A stretch of 64,000 nt of DNA from the human T2T-CHM13v2.0 reference genome, Homo sapiens. Of the stretch, positions 1-58,981 are shown piece by piece. The DNA is taken from NCBI RefSeq assembly GCF_009914755.1, contig NC_060939.1; one strand, 5' to 3'. A model generated the notes under the pieces. It searched no databases and had not been told where the DNA came from. It was given only the letters and a program-made list of their open reading frames with translations. A program made the position numbers and the translations under genes. Positions within the stretch are counted from its first letter, which is position 1. Every line of letters begins with the position of its first letter.

Positions 1-2694
1 ACCAGCGTTCAAACTCAAGTATGTAGGCAAGCCAGCAAGATTATCGAGGCAAAAAATATCAATGTATGCCTCTCAGTTTCTGAATCACTCTTGTGGATCA
101 CTTTTAATAAACATGTAACACCTACTTCTTTTCTAAATAATGACATCAAATGTTCCAGAGAAGTTGACCTTTTCCAGAGGGAAATCAATCAAACTCTGAC
201 AATGTAACAAACATCCTGAGACAAATGTAAGAGCAAGGGAAGTAAACAGAATATTTATTATGATAAGAATTATTTCCTTTTCCAGAATTCTTATCTTTGG
301 GCTTATCACACTGGGAAGTCCTAGAATTGGCTGTGAGATGAAAACAAAGGAAGTAGTTTAAAAATTCTGAGTAAGAAAATACTAATTTTATACATATTAA
401 AGTATAAACCATATAAAAGTATAAAATCTTATTACAGAGCCAACACTAGCAGCAAGAAAGAATTTTAAAACAGTGCAAGATAACACTGAGTGATAAACCA
501 TAAATCAGAGTGACCACAATGGCAGATATAATGCATGGGCTGGTATCTAGTTGTTTAACTCATGAATTAAAGTAAAACAAGCAAGTACTCATGTAGTGCT
601 GATTCTATGCCAGGCACTATCCTAAGTGATTTAAATATGCTAACTGACTTAACTCTCATAATAACCTGATGAGATAGGTCTTATGATAATCATTTTATAG
701 ATGAGGAAACTGTGGCACAGATCAGTTAAGTAATTTTCCCAAGGTCACACACCCAGTAAGCGACAGTGTTGGGGATATGACCCCAGGGAGTCTAATTCCA
801 AAGTCTGAGATCTTAACCACATAGCATCTCATATGTCTAGTACTGGTGGTAGTAATAATAACTCTTTTGTTATTATCTCCTATGTCAATACCTGAAGTCA
901 ACCTTCAGGTATTACATGAAATGCATACATGCATGTAACTGACCATTGTTGTATAACAAGCCATATCCAGAATACCCCATCTTCACATATCCAGACTATA
1001 ATGGGCACTGTGCAAGTGTCCTGATCATTATCTAGCTCACTTAGGTGGAGCCGGAAATTGTTTGCAGGCCCGCAGCCCATTCCCTATAGGCAGGTTGCCA
1101 TAACTTGTGCCATGGAGGCACGACCCACCAGGCCAGGCATGGACACCTGCTCCAAAGGCAGCCATCTGAAGATTGGGCAGTGACCTGTGACCAGCCTCAC
1201 CTAAGCCCTTCGACCAACATGGTGGTAATGGGACCCGTCATACTCTGTCTCTTGGAGACTTTTCACATGAGGCCATAGAGCAGATGCTGAATGAGTGAAC
1301 TGGTGTTGAATTGGAGAGAGACCCAGAGAAAGCACTGGAGAGATGTCATGAGGCAGTAGAAGCCATGAACAAGAGGGGGCATGAGGTAGACAGGGAGAGG
1401 GCGGGAGTCAGTCAGCTGTGGGTAGGAGGAAAACATGAGCCAAAAGCAGGCTGTGAGGAATGGAGTCACAAATTCAGTTGCTGATGGAGAATGCGGTGAG
1501 CCCTGGGTTGACACTGGGTGACCAGAGCTATGTGGCATCTTGAAATTTCATGAGTGACACTTTCTGTGAAGCCAGCGGTGCAGTTCTGGAGATGGTTTCT
1601 TGTCCTCTTTAGGTTTCCATACATTCTTATATTAATCTCCCATTACGGAAGTAGTTTGACTTTTTTTTTTTTTTTTTTTTTTTTTGCATCTTGCAACCTG
1701 AAAGAACCTAACCTAGGTAATTACAGTCCTAGCCTTTGCCTTCTTTTTGTTCCTCCTCCTCCTATATGCCATTACCAAATCCTTGCCAAATTTGTCCTCA
1801 GACCCCTTCTCCCTCCTTTCCACACTACCTGTGGTCCTTAATCCTCCCACCCAGGTGCCTGCGGTGGCCTCCTAGCAGGGGCTGCTTTAAAAACATCAGA
1901 AACATAATTTTCTAAATTGTTTAAAAATCATTCTGATGAAGAATTTCAATGAGCTTTGGACTCACTTGTTACAAAAAAGTAAATCGGCTCTTTTTGATGG
2001 ATGTGCTATTATCACTGATTGAAATAAAAGAATATGAACATTTCCTAGCTGAATTTCAACAAAAATGCTTGCGTAATGGTATGTGGGATTGAAAAAGTAA
2101 TTTTAATTTATAAGCATGCTTCTTCTTTTGGGTCGGCTTTACTTTGGTAAAGTGTCTTTTATCAGCCGTGACAGCCCTAAAACCCAGTGTCAGCATATAA
2201 CAGTCTTCTGTAAGTCAAGATTTTCAAAATAATCAATCTTAGCCCATCTTATTTATTCACCCCTAAATTATTATTTTAAGGAATAATTATATTAAATATT
2301 ATTTGAAATGCTTATACTTTCTAATCTCTCATTTTAAAAAATTCTTTGTGAGCATATGTTTTACAATGCATATATTAGTAAAATAGTGTGAATATTTTAT
2401 AAAGTGGTACAAGTTCAAAGCATTTTAAATGATGAAGTATGTGACAGAAAAAAGGTGGGGCCAAGGCCTATGGGATAAAATGTTAGGTTTTCAAAGTTTT
2501 TCTCTAGCTAGCCTCCTCTTACCTTGCCTCTCTGGCCATTTTCCATCCCAGCTTCTCCGCTCCATTCAAGCTCTCCATTTCTGGAAGCTGATGCTACTAC
2601 AAGCTCCCCTCTCAGCTTCTCCTTCATCAGGTGAACTCAGTTGACATTCCTTTCTCCTTCTACCAATCCAGATGATCAAATTTTATTTTATTTT

Positions 2695-3057
2695 TGATAT
2701 GGTTTGGTCGTGTCCCCACCCAAATCTCACCTTGAATTGTAGTTCCCATAATTCCCACATGTTGTGGGAGGGACCTGGTGAGAGGTAATTGAATCATGGG
2801 GGTGGGTCTTTCCTATGCTGTTCTCGTGATAGTGAATAAGTCTCATGAGATCTGATGGTTTTATAAAGGGCAGTTGGCCTGCACACACTCTCTTGCCTGC
2901 TAGCATGTAAGCTATGCCTTTGGTCCTCATTTGCCTTCTGCCATGATTGCGAGGCCTCCCAGCCGTGTGGAACTGTGAGTCCATTAAACCTCATTTCTTT
3001 ATAAATTACCCAGTTTCAGGTATGTCTTTATTAGCAGTGTGAAAACGGACTAATACA
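2695..3057 (+). mobile_element. THE1-family MaLR solo LTR (THE1B-like)
   Basis: Begins TGATATGGTTTGG..TGTCCCCACCCAAATCTCA and ends GACTAATACA. 5-bp TSD ATTTT on both sides (2690-2694, 3058-3062). Confidence 0.9.
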
Positions 3058-3515
3058 ATTTTTAAAAAACCTTATAGTCCCAAAGTTTTAATTTCTTGCC
3101 CATAACAGTGATACAGACACTAGTTTAAAATATGCTAGTGTCTGATATTTTAGTTCTGTTTTGTTTTATTGTTGAACTACAAATTAGATCCTAATATTAT
3201 AATTTTATACCTAAAGTGTTTAGATTTACCTGCATGTTTGCCAATATATTGACTCATTATTTCCTATAGCATGCCAGATCTTCCCTTTGCCATCATTTTC
3301 CATTTCAGGCAGTCCATTAGTAGTAGACAATGCCAGTAGCCCTTCCACATCCTCTCAGCACAATTTGCAAGCTCAACTGGCCCTCCCACTCTCAACACCT
3401 GTGATTGTGCCCAAGGGCTCTCTCTGGCTGCTGCAGCCCCTCTGCTTCTGCTGGAAGCAGGCAAAAAATGAGGGGGAAGTAATGTCTTCTGGGAACAGCC
3501 CTCAAATAAGGTCTG

Positions 3516-4028
3516 TGCGGAGACCAGCTCAGTCAGGTAGACCCTAACCCAGCAGCACTAGAGGAATTAAAGACACACACACAGAAATACAGAGGTGTGA
3601 AGTGGGAAATCAGGGGTCTCACAGCCTTCAGAGTTGAGAGCCTCCAACAGAGATTTACCCACATATTTATTAACAGCAAGCCAGTGATAAGCATTGTTTC
3701 TATAGATTATAGATTAACTAAAAGTATTCCTTATAGGAAACAAAGGGATGGGCTGAAACAAAGGGATGGGTCTGGCTAGTTATCTGCAGCAGGAACATGT
3801 CCTTAAGGCACAGATCCCTCATCCTATTGTTTGTGGCTTAGGAACGCCTTTAAGTGGTTTTCCGCCCTGGGTGGGCCAGATGTTCCTTGCCCTCATTCCG
3901 ATAAACCCACAACCTTCCAGCCCGGGAGTTATGGCCATCATGAACATGTCACAGTGCTGCAGACATTTTGTTTATGGCCAGTTTTGGGGCCAGTTTATGG
4001 CCAGATTTTGGGGGGCCTGTTCCCAAGA
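3516..4028 (-). mobile_element. MER9-like (HERV-K HML-3) solo LTR
   Basis: Reverse complement starts T(C)TTGGGAACAGGCCCCCCAAAATCTGGCCATAAACTGGCCCC, matching my recollection of MER9. GTCTG direct repeat at 3511-3515 and 4029-4033. Confidence 0.8.
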
Positions 4029-4279
4029 GTCTGCAGGGAGTTGTTGAATACCCCAGCTCTCTTGCCCCTTAGGATGGAAAACTGAGAATTCTCTCTCCTG
4101 GCCCCAGGGTTCCTCAGTAGGATTAAGCTCCGGTTGCCAATGGTGGTGACTTGCTTGATAATGAAATTTTTTTGGCTTCCTTTCCTTTTTCCTCTCTCAC
4201 TTTCCTACTTGCCTACAACTATTTCCTGAGATCACCTTGCAAGTAAAATACTGGCACTCATATTTTGGAGGAAACTCAA

Positions 4280-4930
4280 ATGAAAACAAGATTCTTTATA
4301 AGTTCCCTTAGTGCAGGTCCCATTGGTGGTAAATTCAATTTTTGTTTATCTGGAAACATTTTCATTTCATTATTGTTCTTGGAAAATAGTTTTGATAGAT
4401 GTACAGTCCCAAATTGTCAGGAGTTTTTTGTCAAACTTTGAAAGTATAATTCTGCTGTCTATTGCCACGCACCTTTATAGGTGATCTGTCTTTTTTCTCT
4501 GAGAAAAGATCTTCCCTTTATCTCTGGTGTTCTGCAAATTTTACTATGATATACCTAGGTTTCGATTTTTAAGAAATTTATTTTTCTTTGTGGGGATTGC
4601 TCTTACTGGATCTGTGGATTCTTATCTTTCATCATTCTGGAAAGTTCTCAGCAATGATCTCTTCAAATATTGCCTCTCTTGCAGTCTCTCTGATCTTTCC
4701 TTCTGAGACTCTAGTTAGACATATGCTGAACATTTTCTAACATCTAAACATTTTAAGATCTCACTACCAGTTAGCCAATTTTTGCTTCAACTGTTTCTAA
4801 TCTATTTAATCCTTCCATTGAGCTTTTTAAAAATTCATATATATATAAATAGTAGACATCTTCAGAGTATATTAATTCAGTGGCTTCTATATTCATGTTT
4901 TTATTTTTAAATTTCTATGTGAATCTTTTT
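4280..4930 (-). mobile_element. Old L1 (L1M-type) fragment
   Basis: T-rich text typical of antisense ancient L1 (e.g. TTCTGGAAAGTTCTCAGCAATGATCTCTTCAAATATTG). Boundaries approximate. Confidence 0.55.
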
Positions 4931-5565: not shown

Positions 5566-5784
5566 TGATCTTTGGTAGTGTTTGTACATTTGTTTGATCT
5601 TAATCTGTAGGAAACCTTAGGGCGTAAACTGAGATTGCTTTCTTTCAGAGGAAATTTTCATTTGTATCTGCACGCAGGAGGCACTGCCCACATGGGAACA
5701 TTTGACGTCTTCCAGGGTCCTTGGCTTACTCTGAGGTCTAGGGTTCAGCACCTTCACTTTGCTGCTGACCCAAGTCTTAGGCTC

Positions 5785-7635: not shown

Positions 7636-7848
<213 letters not shown>

Positions 7849-9311
7849 TAGGAAGCTGAAGGGGTAGAAAGAGGAGAATGGAGATGTAAAATGCAGAGAC
7901 CGCAGCAGAGAGGAGTTGGCTTCCAAGGCTACCTTTTTTGAGGTGACTCAGAAATCTGGAAGTAGCCCTCCTCCCTTCCAGCCCCAAAGGGCTTCTTGAG
8001 GGGTTCCAACAAGCATTTGGAGTCTGGACAGCTATAAACTGTATATTACCCTGTCCCTGCCTTGCAACTAGGTGTATTCTATATCCATGATACAAGAGAA
8101 GCCCATTCTTCATTGACTGAGAGACTGCTAGGAGGTCAGGATTGTTCTTAGACCAGTTTGAACCCCAAAAACCTAAACTGAATTTGATTTAGATTCTTGA
8201 ATAGGCTCCAGTTTCTGAAAGGATCACATAGCCTTGTAATCAGAATGCTGGTGGTTTCCGAAGCTGTTGCCTTTCTTTTTTAACCAAACTCACCACCTGC
8301 TTAAATTTAGCCTTCTTTTCTCTTTATGGAAGGGACAGTTATCTCCAAATGGGTCTAAACTCAAGTTACTTTCTAGCCCAGCAGTTGCTCAGCTGGTAGC
8401 TTGTGGGGATATATTTATTTAAGTGAAGTGTCTGCATCCTCTTCTGTTAATCAATTCTGGAAATCAACATCTCTCCACTCCTTCTTTTGGTGAGAGAAAA
8501 ATCCACCCTCCCCAAATCTGCAAAGACTCTGCATAGCACACATGCTTCAACTTTTGTCCTCTTCTCACAGATGGCATGATCCATTTCCTGTTGACTTGGT
8601 TTGTCTCACGCACGTGCCATTAGATCTAATGACTAACGCATGCCACCTTCTGAAGAGAACCTAAATAACCTTCCTGTAATTCTAGTTCTTTTGTAATAGA
8701 CCCAAATCTGGTTTCTCTTCCTGGTCTACTTAAGGCAAATGCTATGGAGGTAATTTTTCTATCCCCTTGCCAAAGGATGTGAGGGTAAGGTTAGCGACCC
8801 ACTGCTGCACTGCACTTCTGCTTCAGAAGCAAAAGAAAGACAATAGCCAAAGGGTTACTGGAGAAGCATAATAAATAGTTTTCACTTATTACAGCTTTTA
8901 TGGTCCAATTCTCCAAGGTGCATAAAACCAGCACATTGAGATAGGGCAAATGAGTCTAAGTGTTATATCGTGGCTTTCTTGTCTCATAGTACACCCCGGA
9001 GAATACCTGAAACCCTGCGTTAGCCAACACCAAGGTTAAAAATACCTCTCTCTCCTCTGGCTGGGGGAGAGAGCAGGTTTCACCTTGCCGAGGGACAGTG
9101 AAGGCCATAGCCGCACTTGCTTGACTAGGACATTCTCTTGCTGGAGACCTGCCTAAATACAAGTATAGCCCACCATAGAATTTCTCCCAGAAACATGGTC
9201 GGCTCCGTCTTGAGCTGTCATCATAACTTCAGAAGAGTTGGGAAGGGCTTTCTTCTAGCAAAAACTACCTCCTCTACCTTAATAGCTAGAGAGTCAGCCA
9301 CCTGAAATTCT

Positions 9312-9632: not shown

Positions 9633-9892
9633 AGCTGGGCACAGTGACTCATGCCTGTAATCCCAGCAGTTGGGGAGGCTGAGGCAGGAGGATCACTTGA
9701 AGCTAGGAGTTCAAGACCAGGGCAAAAAACAAGGCCCCTGACTCTACAAAAAAAAAAAAATTAGCTCAGCATGGTGGCATGTGCCTATGGTCCCAGCGAC
9801 TCAGGAGGCTGAAGTGAGCTATGACTCCACCACTGTACTCCAGCCTGTACCGTGGAGTGAGACCCTGTCTCTAAAGAAAAAAAAAAAAAAAA
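9633..9892 (+). mobile_element. AluJ with internal deletion
   Basis: Alu consensus; TSD-like AAAAGGGTATA / AAAAGAGTATA. Confidence 0.85.
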
Positions 9893-27805: not shown

Positions 27806-28210
27806 GTATTAAAGAGGACCTTAATTTCCCTGCCCCCCAGCTTCTGACACACACAACTGCCTACACAAGTTATTTTACTGGAGAGGGCTTTTAAGGACCA
27901 TCCTCTCTAATAATAATTTTTACTTCTTCTGAGAGTCAATCAGGTTAATATAAATGGCTAATCTCTAGAAATAGAATGTTCCACTTTCATTTAAAAGCAT
28001 TATTTTGCTCCACTAGAGAACATCTCTTTATTTCCCTGCATTAATCTTTCTTTGACCATGGCACTGGCTTTTGTTTTCAAGCGTGTTGTCCTCTCCGTTT
28101 CACCCTTCCTCCAAAGAAACTCGATGAGCTACTTGCTTAGGATTTCAGGTAGAATAAAAACAAAAGAAGGCAAGGATTGTCTAAATTTAAAGTGCTGGAA
28201 AATCCAACAT

Positions 28211-28216
28211 TTTATT
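28211..28216 (-). terminator. Candidate distal poly(A) signal
   Basis: Minus-strand AATAAA with UGUA motifs just upstream and a U-rich UUCUUUUGUUUUU element downstream (about 28155-28168). Confidence 0.6.
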
Positions 28217-29027
28217 TACTACATTTTGGTGACTACATAAATGCTGAAACATTTTAACACTGAAAAGCATGATGGCATCATCACTTGCTTTTTTTTTTTT
28301 TTTTTTTCTTTTTTGCTTAGCAAACACAGCAGATGATATTGCACGGCATAAAGTGAGAACAGTAGCGAAGCTTAAAATAAATGAAAGAAACCTTAATGCA
28401 GTACAGGAGATACTCAGAAACAAACCAGAATAATGCCTAATGCATTACACGTTTTTGTTGCTACACACAAAAATACAGAAGCAGCATCGGACAGAGAGAA
28501 AGAGAGAGAGACAAAATATTAGCAAACAACCATAACTGGGTACAATAATCATTTAGTCTGAAATGTAGATGCAACGTAGAAACTACCACTGTTTTCTAAT
28601 TGACAAAGAAAATGACAGCAACATTTGTCTTTTATCAAAAAATCTTCTAAGCCCCTCATGGTTAGGGTTTTAATTAACTATTTAATTATGTATTTACCCT
28701 TTTTTTTTGTCTTTTTTTCATTGCTAAGGAAGAACTCCCTCTGCTCTTGGAAGATTTTCTACTCTACTGATCTTATTTTATTTTATTTTATTTTTACCTG
28801 ATGATTGTCTTAGGCACCCTCCTTACATAATAAACCATCAAGCTAACTTGAACAGGGAAACTGAGTCACACTCAAACAATAGCTAAGGTCAAAAGTGTAG
28901 TGAAAGTAGAAAAAGTGGGGAAGGGATAGGTCTAAGTGAGTGACAGATGGGCTGATTCAGACAGGGCAATAAGCACAGGGAGATATGAAGACAACTACCA
29001 AAGCAAGTGGAAGACAAGGTTTTCAAC

Positions 29028-29033
29028 TTTATT
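29028..29033 (-). terminator. Candidate poly(A) signal
   Basis: Minus-strand AATAAA followed by GU-rich CUUGUCUU..CUUGCUUUGGUAGUUGUCUU. Confidence 0.55.
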
Positions 29034-32000
29034 GTATTGAAAAATACTTGTCACTTGGTTCAGATGGCAAATCTAAAATGAGCCCACAATGATTATGTAA
29101 TAAATGCAGAACGTACCACAACAAATCGAGACTAACACAGAAACAGAAGATGTGACTTTGTGAATACAACGCCGCTCAGCGCTTCACTGCTGATGTAGGA
29201 GTCGACTCCCTCAACCATTGTCCTAGGTTTCTATAACTCATCGCACAGCATTTGTATTAAAAACAAATCACTGGTCAATGCTTTCCAACAGAACACTGAG
29301 TGATCCTGCAACCCAAAGCAGATTTATTGCCCTATTAAAATACATAATGAGTATAAAAATGTTCCTAAGAAAATGTAACATTTGACCTGAAGTCTAAGCC
29401 CTCTCTTTCCTTCCCCACCACAGTCACCCCTGTGGGAGGGAAAGAGAAAGGTAAAATTTGTATGTTGAGAGGGAAAGTATTTACATCTATGGGTTTATGA
29501 TGTGTAGTGAGGGCAACTTCTTTCAGCAAAATAAAACAAAATAGTGGGCACCGACTCTTCTGAGGATGCCACTGTCAGTTGAGAATTCTGTGTGTGTGCT
29601 CATCACAGGTAGGGCCAAGTATCTGAACTGCCTCCATGAAGGGAGCTGAGGGCAGGGATCATCTCTAGTGCAGAAAAGAAACCAGTGGGAAGATGAAGAG
29701 TGAGCAGAGACAAACTCAGAGAGGCGTGGAGTACATTCACCCCAGTACCCTGACATTTGAGGATGACTCCTGTGACTTTGGTAGGGGCGCGTGGGGAGAG
29801 GAGGGGCAGTCATGAGTAGCAGATTCCAAGAAACTGATGTGGAGAGGGATGTGTAACTTTGATTTTTCTCTTAAATTCTATTGATAATTGAGGCCAAGCA
29901 ATTGTATTTTGTGTCTACTGTGGACTGGCCAGAGGGGTAGGGGCTGGGTCAGCTGCTCCCCAGCCTTGACTTTCTGCTTAAGGGCATGAGGCCATTACAC
30001 TCTCCTCTCAGCTTTGCAAAAGGAACTGTGTCTCCATGCCCTGCCCCCTGCCTTGAAGCAATTCAGAAACTTGGGAAAACCTAGAGGATTTCCAAATTCA
30101 AGTTAGCTTGTCTCTTTGAGTTTTTACACTCTACTTTTCATACCCGTGCGAATGGTTAAAAAAAAAAAAAAAAAAAAAGAAGTAGCAAAGTATCTCACAA
30201 ATGCCGGTGCTTTGAAATATTAAAAAAGTCTCAAATTCTTTGGAATTTCAGGTCTTACCTGCAAAGTAATCTTTTCTAAAAAAAAATTAATAAATTAAAG
30301 GAAGAACATGAACAATGCCTTTCTTCTGTCTAAATGACAAAAAGGACTATCTTGAAACACTCACTTTGGCATGTACAAGTTTCTGAGGGGGACCTGGCAG
30401 TGTTTACAGCACACATTGAAGTACCTACTAAGAAAAAGCTAAAGATACACCCTGCAGTTAAGAGAAGCTCTTGCCTTCAGCTTATCTTAGCATCGAGAAC
30501 AAAAAGATTGTAACATAAAGCTTTGGCCATTTTGATTCTACTATATACATTTTAAAAACTACACAGTCATAAATTAAAGCAGTGATTAAATAAGCTCATA
30601 TAAAATGTAATTAAATTAAAAAAAATCACAGCACATTATAGAGAAAAATAGGAACCAGCTTCACAGAAAAGAGATTTTATATATATATATTTTTTTACCC
30701 TGTGGAAACAAATTTTCTACGGAACACAAAAACTTCATAAGTAACCATCAAAATGAAAATCATTTCGTATTCCATTCTTGCATTTTTACACAACCCTTAA
30801 CTCACCCGGGGAATATTTCCAGAAACTAAGTCTTCCTTGAGCAATAGAGCAGTTCTGCCAAGAAAATAAACCCCAAATCAAAGAGGGGGGGGGACATCCC
30901 AAACATACAAACTACAAAATAAATAAGAATTATAAAGTTTTTTTTAAAGTAACCTTAACAATTATCAAACTAGTAAGTTCTGCCTTATCACATAGACTCT
31001 CTATACAACATAACCCTAAAACTTTATTACTATGAGGTATTTGGAGGAATTGGTAAAAGTTATGCACGGCCTGCCTGGTGGAGGGACAGGTGAAGTCAGG
31101 TGGGGGGAACTTGAGAGGGAACAAGGAGGAGGAGCTTTGGTTTATCAGCAAGAAATTGGGAAAAAAAAAAGTCATCCTTTGGTATCAAAGAAAGTTTCAT
31201 TGCATGGTTGCACGGAAAAAGCACCACGGTGAATAATTATTCCTTTTTTTTTCATTAGTGGCCTTTCTAAGAGGCTGAGGTATTCAAAGAGTATAAGGTG
31301 AAAGAGGTCAACAGCGGTTTAACACTTTGGTTCAAGCAAGGCACTCGTCCTAGGAGTTTACAAAGTTTGCAACATGTTTGCCTAGAGATTTACAAGTAGA
31401 ACTAGCAGTAATAAGAGTAGTATTTCCTAATGTTGTTGTTGTCATTATTGTATCATTATTAAGAATGAAGACAAGTTTACACACTGAGTGAAGAGTTAGG
31501 AAGGGGGAGGGGTGGGGGAAGGGAAGGGGCGGAGTTCCCTCTGCAGACTGAGACCGTGCATGAAAATATCTTTGGTATTCTTTGGTATCATCAATGTGAT
31601 TAAAATCACCAATGGAAATTGAGTGAGGTAGCGTCTTTGGTTCACACTATAAATAGTAGATCTTTACACTTTTTTTTCTTTTTTTCTTTTTCTTTTTTTT
31701 TTTTACACGTGGAAGTCGCTATTTCTTACCTTCTGCTTCTTTGTCCTTACTATTTAGGAAATAGTTACCAAATGTACTGTAAAGCTAACCACACCACAGT
31801 AATAACCCAGAAGGCCAAACATGTCTCAAAACAGCCTCTGGTGTTTGAATGCACCCTAAACAACTAGATAGAAAAAGAAGTGCTTTCTCTTTGTTTGCTA
31901 AATGCATAGTTTTCATCCTTTATGTACAAAGAAGGGAGGACCTTTCTTAGGGAATATGCCTTTATAGCTCATGTGAAAATGTCCTAGGACTCTTTGGTAT

Positions 32001-32385
32001 AGCAAAGTTTGCATTTAACCTGCAACCACGGTCATTCACCTGGGGTAGCAATGGGAGTGGAATGAATCCAAAAGTAGCGTAGTGCTTTTATATTTTCCTG
32101 GAAAAATAATTTCGCTTTTTTGAGGGGGCACAGTGAGTGACATGTTCATTTAGGACTTCTGGATTTCCCACACATTTTCTTTGGTCTTTGGAGTCTATTC
32201 CAGCTGCATCCAGGGACTGGAATACTCAATTCCTGACATCCAGAGCTCTTTTACCTGAACATTTACTGAAGTCTGGGGTTTTGGGGTGTCCAGACGTCAC
32301 AACTCCCTGCCCTCTACAGGAAAGCTTCCAGTGATGAGAGGACCTGAATGTCTTATGGCCAGAAACAGACTAACTTCCATTCTAC

Positions 32386-32432
<47 letters not shown>

Positions 32433-33009
32433 TACTTTAAGTGCAGTTTTGGAATAAACACATGTACAAATAAAAGAGTAAGATAGATACCTTTTTCTGG
32501 TGAATTTTGCAAAAGAATTGAGAAATGATGGGTGAACAAATGGCACATGACCTGCTCTGTGGAATGTAGATTAAAAAACTCAAGCCAGAAATTAATGTTA
32601 CACTAAATAGGAATGGAAGCATTGTGTTTTTTTTCTACATGCCAGTTCAGGAGCAAGTAAAGAATCAGTCATACATGATGTAATAAGTGTATTGCTTGTG
32701 AGAAGCTGAGTTTGTCCATCACGATTTCTAAAAAGCAAAGGGTGTGAGTATGCTCAAACAGTCGAGTAAAAAAATTGCTTTTCAGGCTCTGATTTGTGCA
32801 TCTGTTTATGAGAAAATATATCTCTAAGCCCTGAAATTGCATAATGGGTGCAAATTCAATGCTGGTATGAAAATTATCTTTGGTGTTAGCAAATAGGATA
32901 ACTGGGTAGTTTCTTAAAAAACCATTATGGTAGGATACTGAAAATGAAGCAATATTCTGTGAGACTGTGCCTACACAGTACCAAAATAATTGGTCAAAAA
33001 TGTAACATG

Positions 33010-33310
<301 letters not shown>

Positions 33311-35835
33311 GGGTAACATGTAGTTGGATTGATTTTGGGGGTAATATATAGTAGCAACAAATAAAAAACATGGTTGTCTGAATTCTGCTATTCTTTTCTT
33401 GGGGTATTGAATTTGGTAAGATTGTGTGTAGACACAGCTTGAATTTCCCTGCATTTAGAATTATCACGTTTTAAATAAATAAGGCTTTCCTCCCTCCTAA
33501 ATTATAAATACATTATGTAGCTGTATCCCGGGCTCCCTCCATCCCTGGAGAGAGAGAAAATGTTAATCAGTTTTTTCCTTTTTGTTTATGTCATTGACAA
33601 GATTCTATTTTTTAGTAAATCTTGAAGGGTGGCCATTTAAATGGTCTCTTTCAATAGCTGAACTATAATTGTGCCATATTTAGAAGGGAAATTTTTAAGC
33701 TGGAGTTGTGGGTGAAATTAAAAACAAAAAACAAAACATGTCAAGGCAAATGAAGTATTTCATCAAAAGAGAAGTATATGTTGGTTTCCTCTTCTCATTC
33801 GACAGCAGACATGAAGGAGACACAGATAGATGGCTTGTTGGTTTTGCTTTACCTCTCTAGTTGCCTGCCTGTTACAGACCTAGACAAGGTGCTGAGATTT
33901 GATGCTAAGGAGTTATGTTTTGTGTCAAGATGGTTCAGTTTTGTTCTTTGGCATTTTTAATGAATCTCAATAAAACAACTTATCATTAGGATAACATTTA
34001 ATTTCATAGTTCTAAGTAGGGGTGGTAATTAACTTACAGTATCCAATTCTTTACCTAATGGCATAAGGGGCATCCACTTAGATAAGTTACAGTCCAACTG
34101 AATTCAGAGAGAATTTTTCTGGGAATCAAGTGATTCACTGGGGTACCACTAATACGACTTCATTTTTTTTTTTGACTTTGACTTCTACAGCTCTGGTTAA
34201 GTGATTTGGACAAATAGAAATTTAAAATTTTGTATTTGTAAGCTCAGGTCTAGTTTTTAATCTGTCCCTGTTAGAGAGCAAAATCTATATTATAAAATTT
34301 CCAGCTAAATGCAGTAGCAAGAAAGAAGGCAGAATGCTTTGGAGGCTATTCTTAGTTCCATAAATTGATTAATACCAATAGATCAAAAGTCTTGTCGTCC
34401 ACCAGAACACTGGCTTTTTTCTATACAGTTCCACCAATTCCACCATTTCTCAGTTGCACCTGCTGTTTTGTTGACGTCCAAGTCATAAAATTTCTGGGAT
34501 TGGCAATAAGTTAATTTGATAACTTTTTAGGATAGTTATAAGTACTGAATAGCTCATTTGAATAATAATGTTGTTTTTTTAAACTTTATTTGTATTTGTA
34601 AAGTATTTAAAAGAGGTTTTTGGTGCCAGATGCATAAAGCAAATATAAGTCAATTAATCTAAGGATAGTTCTTTATTTAGTGACCTTTTACTAAAAAGCA
34701 TTACTTTGAACAAATTTTCTAATTTAGTTACCCTCCCTGTTAAATTTAGTTTTCTAGTGTAAAAATGGGGTACTACTTTGGAAAGATCCTCAGGTTTTCT
34801 CAGCTAGGAACAGATTATGGAACCATGTCTATCTCTCTACTTAAGTGACATTTATGGATCCTGAAAAGGAGTGTGCCATCTGGATGTACACGTGTACTGC
34901 ATCGACCTCTCTGCCATGATATTAATTGCTTCCCTGAAGCTACATTCTTTCTTGCCAGTTCTGAAAACTCATATTTCAAATGCTTCAAGAGTCATAAATA
35001 ATAGTCATGATTCTATGTGGCATGTGTATTACAGCTAGATCAGTTCATACGTATAACTTTTCATAGTATCTTGTGTAAAAATAGCTTTGGTTATTAAAAT
35101 CATTGCAATAAAATACCTGCACTATAATATTAAGTGTGTTCTTTGGTACCTAGGTGATTTTTTTAATGGATGGACTCTTGTTTCATTTCTTAAAAAATAT
35201 CTGAACATTCCTTAACAAACAAAGAGAATGCACTGGTTTAGGTGTCATTCAAATTTTCTTTGCTGGGTTTGAATCTGCATTTAGGTTGCGGGCCTGGCAG
35301 GTTCAAACGTTAGGCTAGACGAGCAAAATCACACTCCTAATCCAATGAACTCAGACAACCCCATACCATGTTGGTTGCACTCCTATAGAACAACCATTTC
35401 TGAAGACCAGCTCTGCCTAAGTCTGTAACCACTGGTGGTGGTAGTACTGAGACACCATACACCTTCGTGGCATGGTAGAACAGATGAGAAAGTTCGATCT
35501 TAAAAGATGTCCGCTCAATGGCTCAAAATCACTATGCTCCAAACCACTAAACAGCCAAGCACAGCGAGGATGGTCATGGATTGAAGGTGTGAGATCCAGT
35601 GGTGTTTTCCTGCTCATCATTTGTCTTGCCAAGTCGCCGCCCTGCTGAAGTGTGTGTCTCCAAACAAAGTCAGAATGCAGGTGAGCTAAGTCTTTGGTTT
35701 CTTTGGACTATAAATAACGCTTTTTTTTCTTCAAATATTTCTAAGTATAAACCTGCTATCTTGAGGTCCTGGTCTTTTAAAAATTTTTTTTAATTTAAAG
35801 CTTTTCCACCGAGGTTTTAGTTTGTGGTTCTTCCT

Positions 35836-36128
35836 TCATGCTTTGGTACAAGTGCTTGATGAAGAAGATGAGTTGCCTGAATTGGAGCTGCCCTCGTCCT
35901 GCCACTTGTCCAGACTCCTCCTTCTTGCGTTCATGAAGAAGTTGCTGACAGTGCTCAGCTCCAACCCCAGCTGCTGGGAAATGGTGATTTGCAATTCTTT
36001 GGATGGACGCTTATTTTCCTTGAATATTGCATGTAGAGTTCGACGCTGGACATCTGTGAAGACCAACCTGGGCTTTTTGGGTGTGTTGCCTCTATCCTTC
36101 CCATGTTCTTGTTCTTTCCTTTTGCATG
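35836..36128 (-). CDS. ONECUT1: ONECUT1/HNF6 terminal coding exon (linker + homeodomain + C-terminus)
   Basis: Acceptor ..TTCTGTGTTTCTTCACAG|CATGC (phase 1). Reads (A)CKRKEQEHGKDRGNTPKKPRLVFTDVQRRTLHAIFKENKRPSKELQITISQQLGLELSTVSNFFMNARRRSLDKWQDEGSSNSGNSSSSSSTCTKA*. F48/M50 is the ONECUT signature. HGKDRGNTPKKPR and DVQRRTLHA distinguish it from ONECUT2. Confidence 0.98.
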
Positions 36129-37890
36129 CTGTGAAGAAACACAGAAGATGTTAGAACAAATGGTCTAGGGGAGAATCATGAGTAGAAAGACAGAGCTCAT
36201 AAAATTTGTTAGCCATTCCTCATGGCCTGCTTTCTGTTTGCTGACCTCTGCTTTAAGCACCATTGGAGGCTGGGAGGAAAGTGTAATAGCAGAATGGAGA
36301 ATTGGGATACAGGTGAAGTTCTGTGAGGCCTGGGCGTGGGTTGTGGCTTTGATGAGTATTTGCTCTTTGTCCTGGGTAAGTCAGTTAACTCCATCTGGGC
36401 TTCAGATTCCTCACCTGTAGAATGTAAGTTTCTGGCTAAATGAACTTAATCAGTTTGAACCTTTATTTCTTCATCCTCAAAATGCATATAAGAATACCTA
36501 CCTTGCCGTGTTGTGGTATGAAATAGTGTATGCAAAAGTTTATGCTAACTTTACAAATGCAACACCTTGTCAGCAAGAAGTGGTTGTAGCCCTCAAAGGG
36601 TTTATAGTCTGCTGCCAGTAGAATATTAAGAGCCTAATCAGAGTCTAAAAACATAGTAGAAAGGAATTGCATTTGTTTCCCTTCTGATCTTTTTTATTTT
36701 CCAGGAAAATCTGTATATAAGAAAGTTAAGTATATAGTTTTTTTTATCATGGCCATCAAACAGTCTTCCACTGATTTTCTAGTGGAACCGGGAACTGTGG
36801 AGGTGTGAACCGCTCTTCTTCGACATTGAGACTAAACCTGCCAAGTTAGCCATGTTCATCTCTGGGGTCTCTCTGTGCCTCCTTTTTGCAAGCCATGCTC
36901 TTGGAGTCCCCCTCATCACTTACTTGGTCTCCCACTAAGGGGCCCATTCCCTGCGCTTGCATGTCTGGTCCTGTATTATGAAGCTGCTTTTTGGCTGATG
37001 GAGTTATTCTAATGTATCATCCCAATGGAGCCCTCAGACCCCAGGGTTTGGCGCCAGATCAGGGTCTCTCCTGATTTTAGATGCCATAAGTCTCTTTCCA
37101 CCCTAATGAGGCTCACTAGTTTCCACCTGCTAGAGGACTATCAAGGCTGCATTGGTAACAATGCACACTGCCCCTCCACCCAATCTCCACCATCAATCAA
37201 TCCTCACAACCATCCACAAATAACCATACAACCCAAGTAAAAATAGTGCTCTGATATGTGAATGCAGCCTTAAGAAAAGGCTCCTATGCCCTCACTGCAA
37301 TCAGATTGCTGCCTCTTAGCCCCCTATGTAGGCGTTCTAGAGCAGCCACTGCCACCTTTATATCTGGCTGGCTGTACTCTCATCATGACCATAGTGGAAG
37401 ATGGACGGGGCATGCTTCGTGATGGAGGGAGGGATTGCCATTCTTCCATAGCACATCCCTCCCATTGCTGTCCTACCTGTTGCTGCCTTCTGCTTCACTG
37501 TATGCCTCTGTGTATTCCAGGTTCTCAATTCCTTACCTGATGGTTCACCAGCTCTGGCTAGATTCAGCCTCTGTGCTCTCCTCAGCCTGCCCCTCCCTTT
37601 CATTTCCAGCTGGGTAGATCCTGGACTTCAGAGTTCCTGTAAAACTTCAGGTGCCATTGGTACAAATTAGCTCAGCAACAGATCAGCTGCAGAGCTCATA
37701 GGATGAAAGCTGGAGAGGCCTCAAGGCTTTAGAGTCCAATCCAGAAGGCTCCAATTTTTTAAAACAATGTGCTACTTAGTAAAAAAAGTTCTGAGTGTAT
37801 ATTCCCTTATATTATTTATTTATAAATCATATACATGTGTTAGTATACTACTATATTGTGCACATTATAAAACATACACAATACAAAGAC

Positions 37891-57694: not shown

Positions 57695-58981
57695 GACCAG
57701 TTTATTTAAAAAAAAAACTTGTTTAACTTAAGTGGCATGAATTTGATAACTTTCATTTCTTTGGTTATAAAGACGGGTGATATTATTCGATGGGATAAAG
57801 AAACCAAAATTATAGTTTCAATATGCAAATTTAACTCTCCTAAGAGACACTGGTCGCCTGGGGGATAAACAGTCCCCAATTATCTGATTGATCATTCTTG
57901 TCCTTGGATCATTCCCCATACCCACCAGGCAAATACTAGGTGCCTCCTTAAAAAGCCATTTTTGTAAGGAAAACTTTAAATTCATTAAATTTAAAATCAT
58001 CTTCCCCTTAGGAGCACTCATAATTAGGCTATACTAAGACTCTGGGAACGATCTATGGAGATATGGCAAACTAGCCTCCGTGACTTGACGGTTTCTAATC
58101 CACATGCGAATGTGGAAAAATGCCAAAAAGAGACCAATCTTCAGCAGAGGTACTTAGCGCTCTCCAGAGTATGCATAATAACCGAGTGTGGTATATAAGT
58201 CTAGGGCAGAGGCATCTGTCTCCATCCATCAGACAGTAAATGTGGAGCTGGGGAGGAAAAGGAGTGCTTCCTAACAGGATGGGTGTTGGTGTGAACAAAG
58301 GGGGCTTTTGAAGCCTGTAGTGGAAATTTTCCTTCTGGAGCTGTGTCCTTCAGGAATTCTCTTCCTCCCTATCCCTTCCCATCTGCCTGGTCCTCTCTAC
58401 ACCAAGTCCTCTTTTACCATTTAAACAAATCTTTTGGTTTAACAACGTCTGCAGGCAGATGCTAAAAGCTTTCTGTGAGGCAGCCCTTTTTTAATGTCAG
58501 GATGAAACTCAGGAGCTGTTTATTACTCTGGGGTGGGGGGCTTGGAGGGAAAGAACACCAAGTAATTTTGTGCAGGAATGCTGACCAAACAGTACTGAGG
58601 TACTTCTGGTTCCAGTTTTCCTCCTAGCAGTCATTTTAATCAGCACTTCCCCCTTTTAATGAGCTGGTAGTGCCATTACATAATCACCCAGCTCACTGGA
58701 TTAATGATGAAAAGAGGAACTGATTTTTCCAGTTGCATCATTTGAAGTAAATGTTAACTTTCTTTCTGAGTCCTTAGTTAACAGCATTAGTGTGACAAAT
58801 ATGTCTTTGTCTAGCATAAGTAATTAGAATTTAATCACTTTAACTGCATCTTAATTACCCCAAATGAATTGAAAGGACATTTAATAGCAAAGATTAAATT
58901 GCCTTAATGAACGATTTTTGTGACTCCATCAATACTCGAATCGCTTTAGCCACTCCTCTCACGCACTTCAGTCGCAGAATC

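What the first reader, a model, noticed from the sequence alone, without database searches (positions are those of the whole stretch)
29776..35698. Strand-specific array of about 12 miR-9-5p seed sites reaching 6 kb past the ONECUT1 stop codon
Seen: TCTTTGGT on + (ACCAAAGA in the mRNA, the miR-9-5p 8mer) at 35691, 35140, 32877, 32178, 31991, 31634, 31579 and 31569. The 7mer-m8 CTTTGGT occurs at 35085, 31325, 31177 and 29776. That is eight 8mers in about 4.1 kb, where a base-composition estimate gives roughly 0.1. I noticed only about two 8mers elsewhere in the window. Known: ONECUT factors are reported miR-9 targets in neural development. Inference: most sites lie 3-6 kb from the stop, so they matter only in a long isoform. 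That would make 3' UTR length a switch for miR-9 sensitivity.
Basis: partly seen in the sequence, partly recalled or inferred. Interest (0 to 1): 0.8.

Follow-up and report, generated by a model that had tools for sequence, protein, structure and literature searches.

The report
ONECUT1 long-UTR miR-9 site array
The DNA after the human ONECUT1 stop codon carries a dense, one-stranded cluster of binding sites for the neural microRNA miR-9; most of it lies beyond the annotated end of the gene yet matches an ancient block shared with ONECUT2 and ONECUT3, although the link between this gene and miR-9 is already known.

Summary
All 12 listed sites are present. In 29000-35835 there are 8 miR-9-5p 8mers, 5 more 7mer-m8 sites (31135 was missed) and 4 7mer-A1 sites. 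All lie on the mRNA-sense strand and none on the other. Dinucleotide shuffles give 0.29 8mers (max 4 of 2000).

It is the ONECUT1 3' UTR, which probably runs about 6.8 kb to an AATAAA at 29033-29028.
- The RefSeq end at 33333 has no poly(A) signal and abuts an Alu insertion.
- The distal core is paralogous to the ONECUT2 and ONECUT3 3' regions. One block (31568-31704) holds a miR-9 8mer, a let-7 8mer and a miR-9 8mer pair. Another (31325-31350) holds a miR-124 site plus a miR-9 site.
- Each composite motif occurs at exactly three places in the genome, the three ONECUT genes.

ONECUT1 as a top predicted and reporter-validated miR-9 target is already in print (PMC10914762). What my searches did not find in print is the unannotated extension and the shared cassette.

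I had no transcript data, AGO-CLIP data or other vertebrate genomes.

The parts
29010..35835 (-). Inferred full-length ONECUT1 3' UTR (about 6.8 kb), from the base after the TGA stop (35836-35838) to a cleavage site inferred about 20 nt past the AATAAA at 29033-29028
   Evidence: The strand-specific site array ends at 29775. A PAS with a GT-rich downstream stretch lies at 29033-29028. The distal core is paralogous to the inside of the ONECUT2 UTR. GC is 0.356 (annotated part) and 0.39 (extension) against 0.428 further downstream. The cleavage position is inferred and was not observed.
33333..35835 (-). RefSeq NM_004498.4 3' UTR (2,503 nt)
   Evidence: Hub annotation. No AATAAA or ATTAAA lies within 600 nt upstream of its end.
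35700..35707 (-). miR-9-5p 7mer-A1 site, 9 nt before the next site
35691..35698 (-). miR-9-5p 8mer, 138 nt after the stop
35140..35147 (-). miR-9-5p 8mer
35084..35091 (-). miR-9-5p 7mer-m8, 56 nt after the previous site
33945..33952 (-). miR-9-5p 7mer-A1
33006..33318 (+). Alu insertion, antisense to the mRNA, flanked by the duplicated 8-mer GTAACATG. The RefSeq 3' end (33333) lies just upstream of it in mRNA sense.
   Evidence: Masked-repeat list from the hub; sequence; flanks; Alu-type matches to other loci
32877..32884 (-). miR-9-5p 8mer, the first site beyond the RefSeq end
32185..32192 (-). miR-9-5p 7mer-A1, overlapping the next 8mer by 1 nt
32178..32185 (-). miR-9-5p 8mer
31991..31998 (-). 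miR-9-5p 8mer
31568..31704 (-). Paralogue-conserved block A: an A-rich tract, a miR-9 8mer, a let-7 8mer and a tandem pair of miR-9 8mers
   Evidence: 80% identity over 144 columns to ONECUT2 L004:7837-7979, E 5e-27; alignments. The composite motif has exactly 3 genomic places, the three ONECUT genes, with control 0.
31634..31641 (-). miR-9-5p 8mer in block A; counterpart of the ONECUT2 8mer at L004:7904
   Evidence: flank alignment score 82 against a null maximum of 28
31624..31631 (-). let-7 8mer seed match (CTACCTCA in mRNA sense), the only let-7 site in the 6.8 kb. It is invariant in all three paralogues.
   Evidence: That this motif is the let-7 seed match is recalled, not taken from a call.
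31579..31586 (-). miR-9-5p 8mer, first of the tandem pair
   Evidence: score 66 against a null maximum of 28
31569..31576 (-). miR-9-5p 8mer, second of the tandem pair (10 nt start to start). The pair corresponds to ONECUT2 L004:7962/7971.
   Evidence: score 64 against a null maximum of 32
31325..31350 (-). Paralogue-conserved block B: a miR-124 7mer-m8 (31338-31344) followed by a miR-9 7mer-m8 (31324-31331)
   Evidence: 26 of 26 identical to ONECUT2 L004:9855-9880. Three-way alignment with ONECUT3. The motif has exactly 3 genomic places, the three ONECUT genes, with control 0. That GTGCCTT is the miR-124 seed match is recalled.
31176..31183 (-). miR-9-5p 7mer-m8
31007..31040 (-). Weak colinear block C shared with ONECUT2 (L005:179-212) and ONECUT3 (L006:3952-4001). 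In ONECUT1 it holds an AATAAA (31028-31023), a candidate medial poly(A) signal.
   Evidence: (E 1.5 alone, but the spacing to the previous anchor is 231 nt against 233 nt)
30237..30244 (-). miR-9-5p 7mer-A1
29775..29782 (-). miR-9-5p 7mer-m8, the last site of the array, in a GC-rich context (flank AU 0.38)
29028..29033 (-). AATAAA, candidate distal poly(A) signal, with the most T/GT-rich downstream stretch of the candidates inside the array region
   Evidence: downstream T 0.47, G+T 0.64
34585..34677 (-). Two AATAAA hexamers (34677-34672 and 34590-34585), candidate proximal poly(A) signals about 1.2 kb after the stop
   Evidence: Sequence only; usage is unknown.
35841..35847 (-). miR-9 7mer-m8 match inside the last codons of the CDS, also present in ONECUT2
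   Evidence: It may be kept by the coding constraint alone.

Best explanation
This is the 3' UTR of ONECUT1. The real UTR is most likely about 6.8 kb (stop at 35836, AATAAA at 29033-29028), not the 2.5 kb of the RefSeq model. It carries 8 8mer, 5 7mer-m8 and 4 7mer-A1 seed sites for miR-9-5p.

The sites would work in the ordinary way. AGO-miR-9 binds the seed matches and recruits TNRC6 and the deadenylases, and the mRNA is destabilised and translated less. Closely spaced sites (9-56 nt apart in five pairs) probably act cooperatively. Biologically, this would clear ONECUT1 as miR-9 rises in neural and retinal progenitors, closing the window for early-born fates.

The distal core (31.7-31.0 kb) is an ancient cassette kept in the same order in ONECUT1, ONECUT2 and ONECUT3:
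- Block A: a miR-9 site, a let-7 site and a miR-9 pair.
- Block B: a miR-124 site next to a miR-9 site.

What is shown: the sites, their excess and strand bias, the paralogy, and the lack of a poly(A) signal at the RefSeq end. What is inferred: that the distal part is in the mature mRNA, the cleavage point, AGO binding at these particular sites, cooperativity and the developmental role.
For: Sites and statistics:
- 8 8mers against a shuffle mean of 0.29; 13 7mer-m8 against 0.97; 0 antisense.
- The miR-9 5p arm is identical in 3 of 3 MIR9 hairpins of this genome and complementary to the sites.
- Of 29 seed motifs scanned (recalled motifs), only miR-9 is enriched: 13 sense and 0 antisense, with all 28 others at 2 or fewer.
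- 11 of 13 sites have A or T opposite miRNA position 9, and 8 of 13 have A at t1 against an A frequency of 0.305.

Paralogues:
- ONECUT2 has 8 sense 8mers and ONECUT3 has 3 in their 3' regions, with 0 antisense. There are 0 sense 8mers in 10 kb of each upstream intron.
- Block A is 80% identical over 144 columns and block B is 26 of 26 identical to ONECUT2. The homeodomain-coding exon is only 72% identical.
- The composite motifs of blocks A and B each occur at exactly 3 places in 3.1 Gb, the three ONECUT genes, with 0 in the controls.
- The ONECUT2 counterparts lie inside its published 14,575-nt UTR. By their order they are that paper's 'sites 7+8', the strongest PAR-CLIP sites (PMC10914762). 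The mapping by order is my inference.

RefSeq end: there is no PAS hexamer between 33956 and 31028, and the end abuts an Alu with a target-site duplication.

Other checks: only one ORF of 90 aa or more (96 aa) in 28500-35835 and no Rfam family.

Literature (passages read):
- ONECUT1-3 are top TargetScan miR-9 candidates, and a human ONECUT1 UTR reporter and the endogenous mRNA and protein are repressed in 293T cells (PMC10914762).
- Onecut1 and Onecut2 are up in miR-9-2 knockout mouse retina (PMC13060328).
- A Xenopus Onecut1 UTR reporter is used as a known target (PMC3361082).
- Chick OC1 is repressed by miR-9, according to reviews citing Luxenhofer 2014. That paper itself is not held.
Against: - No transcript evidence was available, so continuity of the mRNA from 33333 to about 29010 is not shown.
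- RefSeq (the model named in the hub table as the selected transcript) ends at 33333.
- PMC10914762 reports few PAR-CLIP reads on OC1. It also states that mouse OC1 lacks miR-9 sites and that miR-9 did not lower OC1 in Neuro-2a cells. Either the mouse lacks the extension or its annotation is also short; I could not check.
- Only 4 of 17 sites show flank homology to a paralogue clearly above the shuffled-flank null. The other 13 have no such support. Two of them scored 31 against null maxima of 29 and 30, on an alignment that lay outside the miR-9 seed match in both the query and ONECUT2.
- Cross-species conservation could not be computed.
- The triple-8mer pattern alone is no rarer than its reversed control: 3 places against 4.
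- PMC10356556 calls the OC1 3' UTR short and reports that the OC2 mRNA is resilient to miR-9 in prostate cancer cells. Many sites therefore do not guarantee strong repression.
Confidence: 0.7

Rival explanations
1. ONECUT1 makes short and long 3' UTR isoforms by regulated alternative polyadenylation. Only the long, for example neural, isoform is strongly miR-9-sensitive, so UTR length acts as a switch.
For: Candidate poly(A) hexamers exist at 34677, 34590, 31028, 29328 and 29033. 9 of the 13 8mer/7mer-m8 sites and both conserved blocks lie more than 2.9 kb from the stop. General lengthening of 3' UTRs in neurons is established knowledge (recalled). Weak block C shows that the 31028 hexamer sits in a partly conserved stretch.
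Against: The first 750 nt already hold two 8mers, one 7mer-m8 and one 7mer-A1, so no isoform escapes miR-9. The annotated 'short' end (33333) lacks any PAS and abuts an Alu. The ONECUT2 long form is reported as predominant in 98.3% of samples. A search for ONECUT1 with 'alternative polyadenylation' listed 9 papers, none with both terms in the title or abstract (listing only). Isoform usage was not testable here.
Confidence: 0.2
2. The distal stretch (33332-29000) is not part of the ONECUT1 mRNA. It is a conserved DNA element (an enhancer) or a separate non-coding transcript, and the motif excess reflects something other than miRNA targeting.
For: It lies outside the RefSeq model (hub table). 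No transcript data were seen. Developmental transcription-factor loci are rich in conserved non-coding DNA (general knowledge).
Against: The strand bias is complete: 13 to 0 for the 7mer and 21 to 1 for the 6-mer core. An orientation-free DNA motif would not show this. The bias favours A at t1 and A/T at position 9, as miRNA sites do. The homologous blocks in ONECUT2 lie inside a documented UTR with PAR-CLIP reads. The blocks pair the miR-9 seed match with let-7 and miR-124 seed matches.
Confidence: 0.08
3. The array works mainly as a miR-9 sponge (competing endogenous RNA), or as a trigger of miR-9 decay, rather than as a means of repressing ONECUT1.
For: A sponge role has been proposed for the ONECUT2 3' UTR, with 'up to 26 miR-9 sites' (PMC10356556). 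ONECUT1 holds 17 sites of 7 or 8 nt.
Against: No site has 3' pairing beyond the null: the best Watson-Crick runs in miRNA positions 11-20 are 2-4 nt, as at random UTR positions. That argues against target-directed miRNA degradation. miR-9 is very abundant in neural cells and ONECUT1 mRNA is scarce (PMC10914762 notes low OC1 expression), which makes titration unlikely; this is an inference. Repression of ONECUT1 by miR-9 is what the experiments report.
Confidence: 0.05
4. The cluster is chance, or a by-product of repeats or low-complexity sequence.
For: Over the whole window the 7mer count is not unusual: 20 of 100 shuffles reach it. Three sites lie within 73 nt.
Against: 0 of 2000 regional shuffles reach even 5 8mers against 8 observed. 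The only masked repeat of 100 nt or more within 29000-35835 is the Alu at 33006-33318 (hub list), and it holds no site. The three clustered sites are not tandem copies of one unit; they are part of a block aligned base for base with ONECUT2.
Confidence: 0.01

Closest known systems
ONECUT2 3' UTR miR-9 site array (PMC10914762; PMC10356556)
   Same: It has eight sense-strand 8mers (my count matches the 'eight conserved 8mer sites' of PMC10914762). It has a tandem overlapping pair plus an upstream site, and blocks A and B in the same order. It is repressed by miR-9 in 293T and Neuro-2a cells, with PAR-CLIP reads on the tandem pair.
   Different: The ONECUT2 UTR is fully annotated (14,575 nt). In ONECUT1 the homologous blocks lie 4.2-4.5 kb after the stop, outside the RefSeq transcript. 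No other ONECUT1 site is alignable to ONECUT2 (13 of 17 flanks at null level). The site density in ONECUT1 (8 8mers in 6.8 kb) is about twice that of ONECUT2 (8 in 14.6 kb).
ONECUT1 as a published miR-9 target (TargetScan ranking and reporter in PMC10914762; chick OC1 in Luxenhofer 2014, seen only through citing reviews)
   Same: [quoted passage not shown]
   Different: The papers I could read give no coordinates. PMC10356556 speaks of a 'short 3' UTR OC1', and PMC10914762 says mouse OC1 lacks sites. Neither mentions a 6.8-kb UTR or homology to the ONECUT2 sites.
Multi-site 3' UTRs of developmental regulators whose truncation relieves repression, such as HMGA2 with its let-7 sites
   Same: Many sites for one heterochronic miRNA in a long UTR of a developmental regulator. 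UTR shortening would reduce repression.
   Different: Here the proximal UTR keeps strong sites, so truncation would only weaken repression. No truncating rearrangement or isoform is documented.

Membership tests
Canonical miRNA (miR-9-5p) 3' UTR target-site cluster | A perfect match to miRNA nucleotides 2-8 (with or without A opposite nucleotide 1) on the mRNA-sense strand | tested here: met
   8 8mers and 5 7mer-m8 on the ONECUT1 sense strand. The 5p arm was read from the three MIR9 hairpins of the same genome.
Canonical miRNA (miR-9-5p) 3' UTR target-site cluster | More sites than composition predicts, on one strand only | tested here: met
   8 against 0.29 and 13 against 0.97 in 2000 dinucleotide shuffles; antisense 0. 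It is the top non-homopolymer 8-mer of the region.
Canonical miRNA (miR-9-5p) 3' UTR target-site cluster | The sites lie within the mature mRNA, between the stop codon and the poly(A) site | tested here: inconclusive
   4 of 13 8mer/7mer-m8 sites (and 2 of 4 7mer-A1 sites) lie in the RefSeq UTR; the rest lie beyond it. Indirect support for the extension: no PAS at the RefSeq end, a PAS at 29033, and paralogy to the interior of the ONECUT2 UTR. No RNA data were available.
Canonical miRNA (miR-9-5p) 3' UTR target-site cluster | Evolutionary conservation of the sites | tested here: inconclusive
   Between paralogues, 4 of 17 sites (31634, 31579, 31569, 31324) are conserved with ONECUT2, and two modules with ONECUT3. 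Cross-species alignment was not possible, because no other vertebrate genome is held.
Canonical miRNA (miR-9-5p) 3' UTR target-site cluster | AGO occupancy and miRNA-dependent repression | not testable with these tools
   Literature only. A human OC1 UTR reporter and the endogenous OC1 are repressed in 293T cells, but there are few PAR-CLIP reads on OC1 (PMC10914762).
APA-dependent miRNA-sensitivity switch | Two or more functional poly(A) sites giving UTR isoforms | tested here: inconclusive
   Hexamers at 34677, 34590, 31028, 29328 and 29033. Their usage is unknown. The annotated end at 33333 has no hexamer.
APA-dependent miRNA-sensitivity switch | The short isoform lacks the sites, so that it escapes repression | tested here: not met
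   Two 8mers, one 7mer-m8 and one 7mer-A1 lie within 750 nt of the stop, upstream of every candidate PAS except an ATTAAA 42 nt and one 669 nt after the stop.
Target-directed miRNA degradation trigger | A seed match plus extensive pairing to the miRNA 3' end | tested here: not met
   The best Watson-Crick run opposite miRNA positions 11-20 is 2-4 nt at all 13 sites. The null at 500 random UTR positions peaks at 2-3.
Structured RNA family (Rfam) | A match to a curated covariance model | tested here: not met
   0 matches at gathering score in 28000-36200.

The most novel reading that the evidence does not exclude
The three vertebrate ONECUT genes have kept, since their duplication, one colinear 'timer cassette' in their 3' UTRs. 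It consists of a let-7 8mer flanked by miR-9 8mers, followed by an adjacent miR-124 and miR-9 pair, and at the nucleotide level it is better conserved than the homeodomain exon. This cassette, rather than the scattered sites, would be what shuts off early-born neuronal identity as these three miRNAs rise. The ONECUT1 copy sits outside the reference transcript model. Target predictors, reporter constructs and variant interpretation would therefore miss it, which could explain the conflicting reports on whether mouse Onecut1 responds to miR-9.
Probability: 0.4. Interest if true: 0.6.

Novelty: new member of a known kind. Interest (0 to 1): 0.42.

Why it matters
ONECUT1 (HNF6) is a dosage-sensitive regulator of liver, pancreas, retina and early-born spinal neurons. 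If its real UTR is 6.8 kb, the reference model hides about two thirds of its miR-9 sites. It also hides its only let-7 and miR-124 seed matches found here.

This has three practical consequences:
- It affects miRNA target prediction.
- It affects the design of UTR reporters and knock-ins.
- It affects how non-coding variants just downstream of the gene are read.

The shared cassette gives a small, precise target for testing how miRNAs time the shut-off of ONECUT factors: about 400 nt, 31.3-31.7 kb in the window.

The basic link, that miR-9 represses ONECUT1, is not new.

Tried and rejected
- Chance or repeat origin: rejected.
- Rfam scan of 28000-36200: nothing.
- A protein-coding gene in the distal stretch: only one ORF of 90 aa or more (96 aa, 29523-29813). 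I did not pursue it.
- 3' supplementary or TDMD-type pairing: none above the null.
- Genome-wide search for the triple-8mer spacing pattern: 3 places (ONECUT1, ONECUT2 and one on contig 23), but the reversed control gave 4, so the count alone says nothing.
- My first pattern for block B was mis-designed and matched only ONECUT3. The corrected pattern matched all three genes.
- Flank homology for the proximal sites: no alignable counterpart in ONECUT2 or ONECUT3. 13 of 17 sites are at null level, two of them with marginal scores on an alignment that lay outside the seed match.
- A BLAST hit from 30579-30550 to ONECUT2 2343-2372 (E 0.019) is not colinear with the other blocks, and I did not use it.
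- Literature searches for an ONECUT1 long UTR or poly(A) choice, for let-7 or miR-124 with Onecut and for ohnologue UTR conservation found nothing relevant. may have failed only because an apostrophe cannot be searched.
- Papers read that added nothing on this point: PMC6582315, PMC7961372, PMC10515288, PMC2736963 and PMC8612522.
- Luxenhofer 2014 is not held.
- TargetScan's own UTR model and site table could not be consulted. It may already display some or all of the distal sites.

Full report

Yes. TCTTTGGT occurs 10 times in the window, all on the + strand. The other two are at 5569 and 57758.

The four listed 7mer-m8 sites are present. There is a fifth at 31135 and one inside the last codons of the CDS at 35841. 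Adding 7mer-A1 sites and 6mers, the stretch from 35835 to 29000 holds 8 8mers, 5 7mer-m8, 4 7mer-A1 and 4 6mers in mRNA sense.

The 6-nt core occurs 21 times in sense and once in antisense. Two thousand dinucleotide-preserving shuffles of these 6,836 nt give a mean of 0.29 8mers (largest 4) and 0.97 7mer-m8 (largest 7). ACCAAAGA is the most over-represented non-homopolymer 8-mer of the region.

Over the whole 64 kb the 7mer count is unremarkable (20 of 100 shuffles reach it), so the excess is local. Downstream of 29000 and upstream of the stop, the sense-strand density falls to background: 3 and 2 7mer-m8 in about 29 kb and 28 kb.

**2. Are these miR-9 sites?**

The Rfam mir-9 model finds three hairpins in this genome. 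Their 5' arms are identical and begin with the 8 nt complementary to the sites.

Eight of 13 sites carry A at t1 against an A frequency of 0.305, and 11 of 13 have A or T opposite position 9. These are features of effective sites as I recall them from the targeting literature.

No site has 3' pairing beyond what random UTR positions give. They are plain seed sites, not decay triggers.

**3. Where does the UTR end?**

RefSeq ends the transcript at 33333. In mRNA sense that point is followed within about 15 nt by a T-run and an antisense Alu (33318-33006). The Alu is flanked by the duplicated 8-mer GTAACATG, which marks an insertion into pre-existing sequence.

No AATAAA or ATTAAA occurs anywhere between 33956 and 31028. 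The annotated end therefore has no poly(A) signal. I read it as a limit of the transcript model at a repeat. That is an inference.

Candidate signals are at 34677 and 34590 (1.2 kb after the stop), 31028 (4.8 kb), 29328 and 29033 (6.8 kb). The last has the most T/GT-rich downstream stretch of those within the array region. The last miR-9 site is at 29775.

The stretch has one ORF of 90 aa or more (96 aa) and no Rfam match. Its GC content resembles the annotated UTR more than the DNA further downstream.

**4. Paralogues**

The held assembly let me find the last coding exons of ONECUT2 and ONECUT3 and fetch their flanks.
- ONECUT2 has 8 sense 8mers after its stop and ONECUT3 has 3.
- Neither has any antisense 8mer.
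- There is no sense 8mer in 10 kb of either upstream intron.

BLAST of the ONECUT1 region against them gives two significant non-repeat, non-coding matches besides the coding exon and Alus:
- 31704-31568 matches ONECUT2 7837-7979: 80% over 144 columns, E 5e-27.
- 31350-31325 matches ONECUT2 9855-9880: 26 of 26 identical.

The coding exon itself is 72% identical.

Block A aligns base for base. It has a miR-9 8mer, then an 11-nt stretch holding a let-7 8mer match, then about 40 nt, then two miR-9 8mers 9-10 nt apart. ONECUT3 keeps the let-7 stretch and one miR-9 8mer.

Block B holds a miR-124 7mer-m8 match next to a miR-9 site, in all three genes.

Patterns for each composite match exactly three places in the 3.1-Gb genome, the three ONECUT 3' regions, and the reversed-pattern controls match none.

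Two further weak matches keep the same order and nearly the same spacing, 231 nt against 233 nt. The only let-7 and the only miR-124 seed match of the whole 6.8 kb are the ones in these blocks.

The remaining 13 of 17 ONECUT1 sites have no detectable paralogous flank.

**5. What the literature says (passages read, not whole papers)**

PMC10914762 reports the following:
- OC1, OC2 and OC3 are among the top TargetScan miR-9 candidates.
- Human OC1 has 'multiple' 8mers.
- A human OC1 UTR reporter and the endogenous OC1 are repressed in 293T cells.
- OC2 has eight conserved 8mers.

By their order along the UTR these are the ONECUT2 counterparts of 31579 and 31569. That mapping is my inference.

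The same paper says that few reads mapped to OC1, that mouse OC1 lacks miR-9 sites, and that OC1 was not lowered by miR-9 in Neuro-2a cells.

A 2026 preprint finds Onecut1 and Onecut2 raised in miR-9-2 knockout mouse retina (PMC13060328). PMC10356556 describes the 14,575-nt OC2 UTR, calls the OC1 UTR short and proposes a sponge role for OC2. A Xenopus Onecut1 UTR reporter is treated as a known target (PMC3361082). Reviews cite Luxenhofer 2014 for chick OC1; that paper is not held.

Searches for an ONECUT1 long UTR, for poly(A) choice, for let-7 or miR-124 with Onecut, or for ohnologue conservation found nothing on these points. TargetScan itself and the supplements were out of reach.

**6. Reading**

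The array is real and is a canonical miR-9 target cluster. The gene-miRNA pair is already known.

What the evidence adds is that the ONECUT1 UTR very probably continues about 4.3 kb past its annotated end. It also shows that the distal core is an old cassette, shared by all three paralogues, combining miR-9 with let-7 and miR-124 sites.

The 'length switch' is possible but unsupported. The annotated short end is not a credible cleavage site, and every plausible short form keeps two 8mers.

The sponge, enhancer and chance readings are unlikely for the reasons given under rivals.

**7. Limits**

- I saw no RNA-seq, 3'-end data or CLIP data.
- No vertebrate genome other than this one was held, so conservation rests on paralogues only.
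- The identities of the let-7 and miR-124 motifs and the rules for effective sites are recalled.
- That the ONECUT genes are duplicates from the early vertebrate genome duplications is also recalled, not tested.

Noticed in passing
window 31665-31705 (mRNA sense): An A-rich tract of about 40 nt sits immediately upstream of block A and is partly conserved in ONECUT2. Oligo-dT-based 3'-end or single-cell methods could prime here internally and mimic a poly(A) site in the middle of the UTR.
   Followed up: no
window 32387-32428: A run of 42 A on the + strand, which is a U42 run in the putative UTR. A second run of 21 is at 30158-30178. Their origin and effect are unknown. Their length may vary between people and may disturb read mapping.
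   Followed up: no
window 35841-35847: A miR-9 7mer-m8 match overlaps the last codons of ONECUT1, and the same letters occur at the end of the ONECUT2 CDS. It could be kept by the protein sequence alone.
   Followed up: partly
window 57758-57765 and 5569-5576: The only other two 8mers in the window are also on the + strand. One is in the ONECUT1 intron and the other about 23 kb beyond the putative poly(A) site. That is within chance for 57 kb.
   Followed up: no
G000:C23:33258616-33258681 (-): This is the only other place in the genome with three miR-9 8mers in the block-A spacing. It has no sequence likeness to the ONECUT blocks apart from the seed matches. The reversed control pattern gave 4 hits, so it may be chance.
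   Followed up: no
L006 (ONECUT3 downstream), about 1722-4500: The ONECUT3 counterparts of blocks A, B and C lie 1.4-3.7 kb after its last coding exon, and an AATAAA lies at L006:4508. This suggests an ONECUT3 3' UTR of about 4.2 kb. I did not check it against any annotation.
   Followed up: partly
window 29523-29813 (-): A 96-aa ATG-initiated ORF lies on the mRNA-sense strand inside the putative distal UTR and overlaps the last miR-9 site. It was not searched against protein databases and is probably chance.
   Followed up: no
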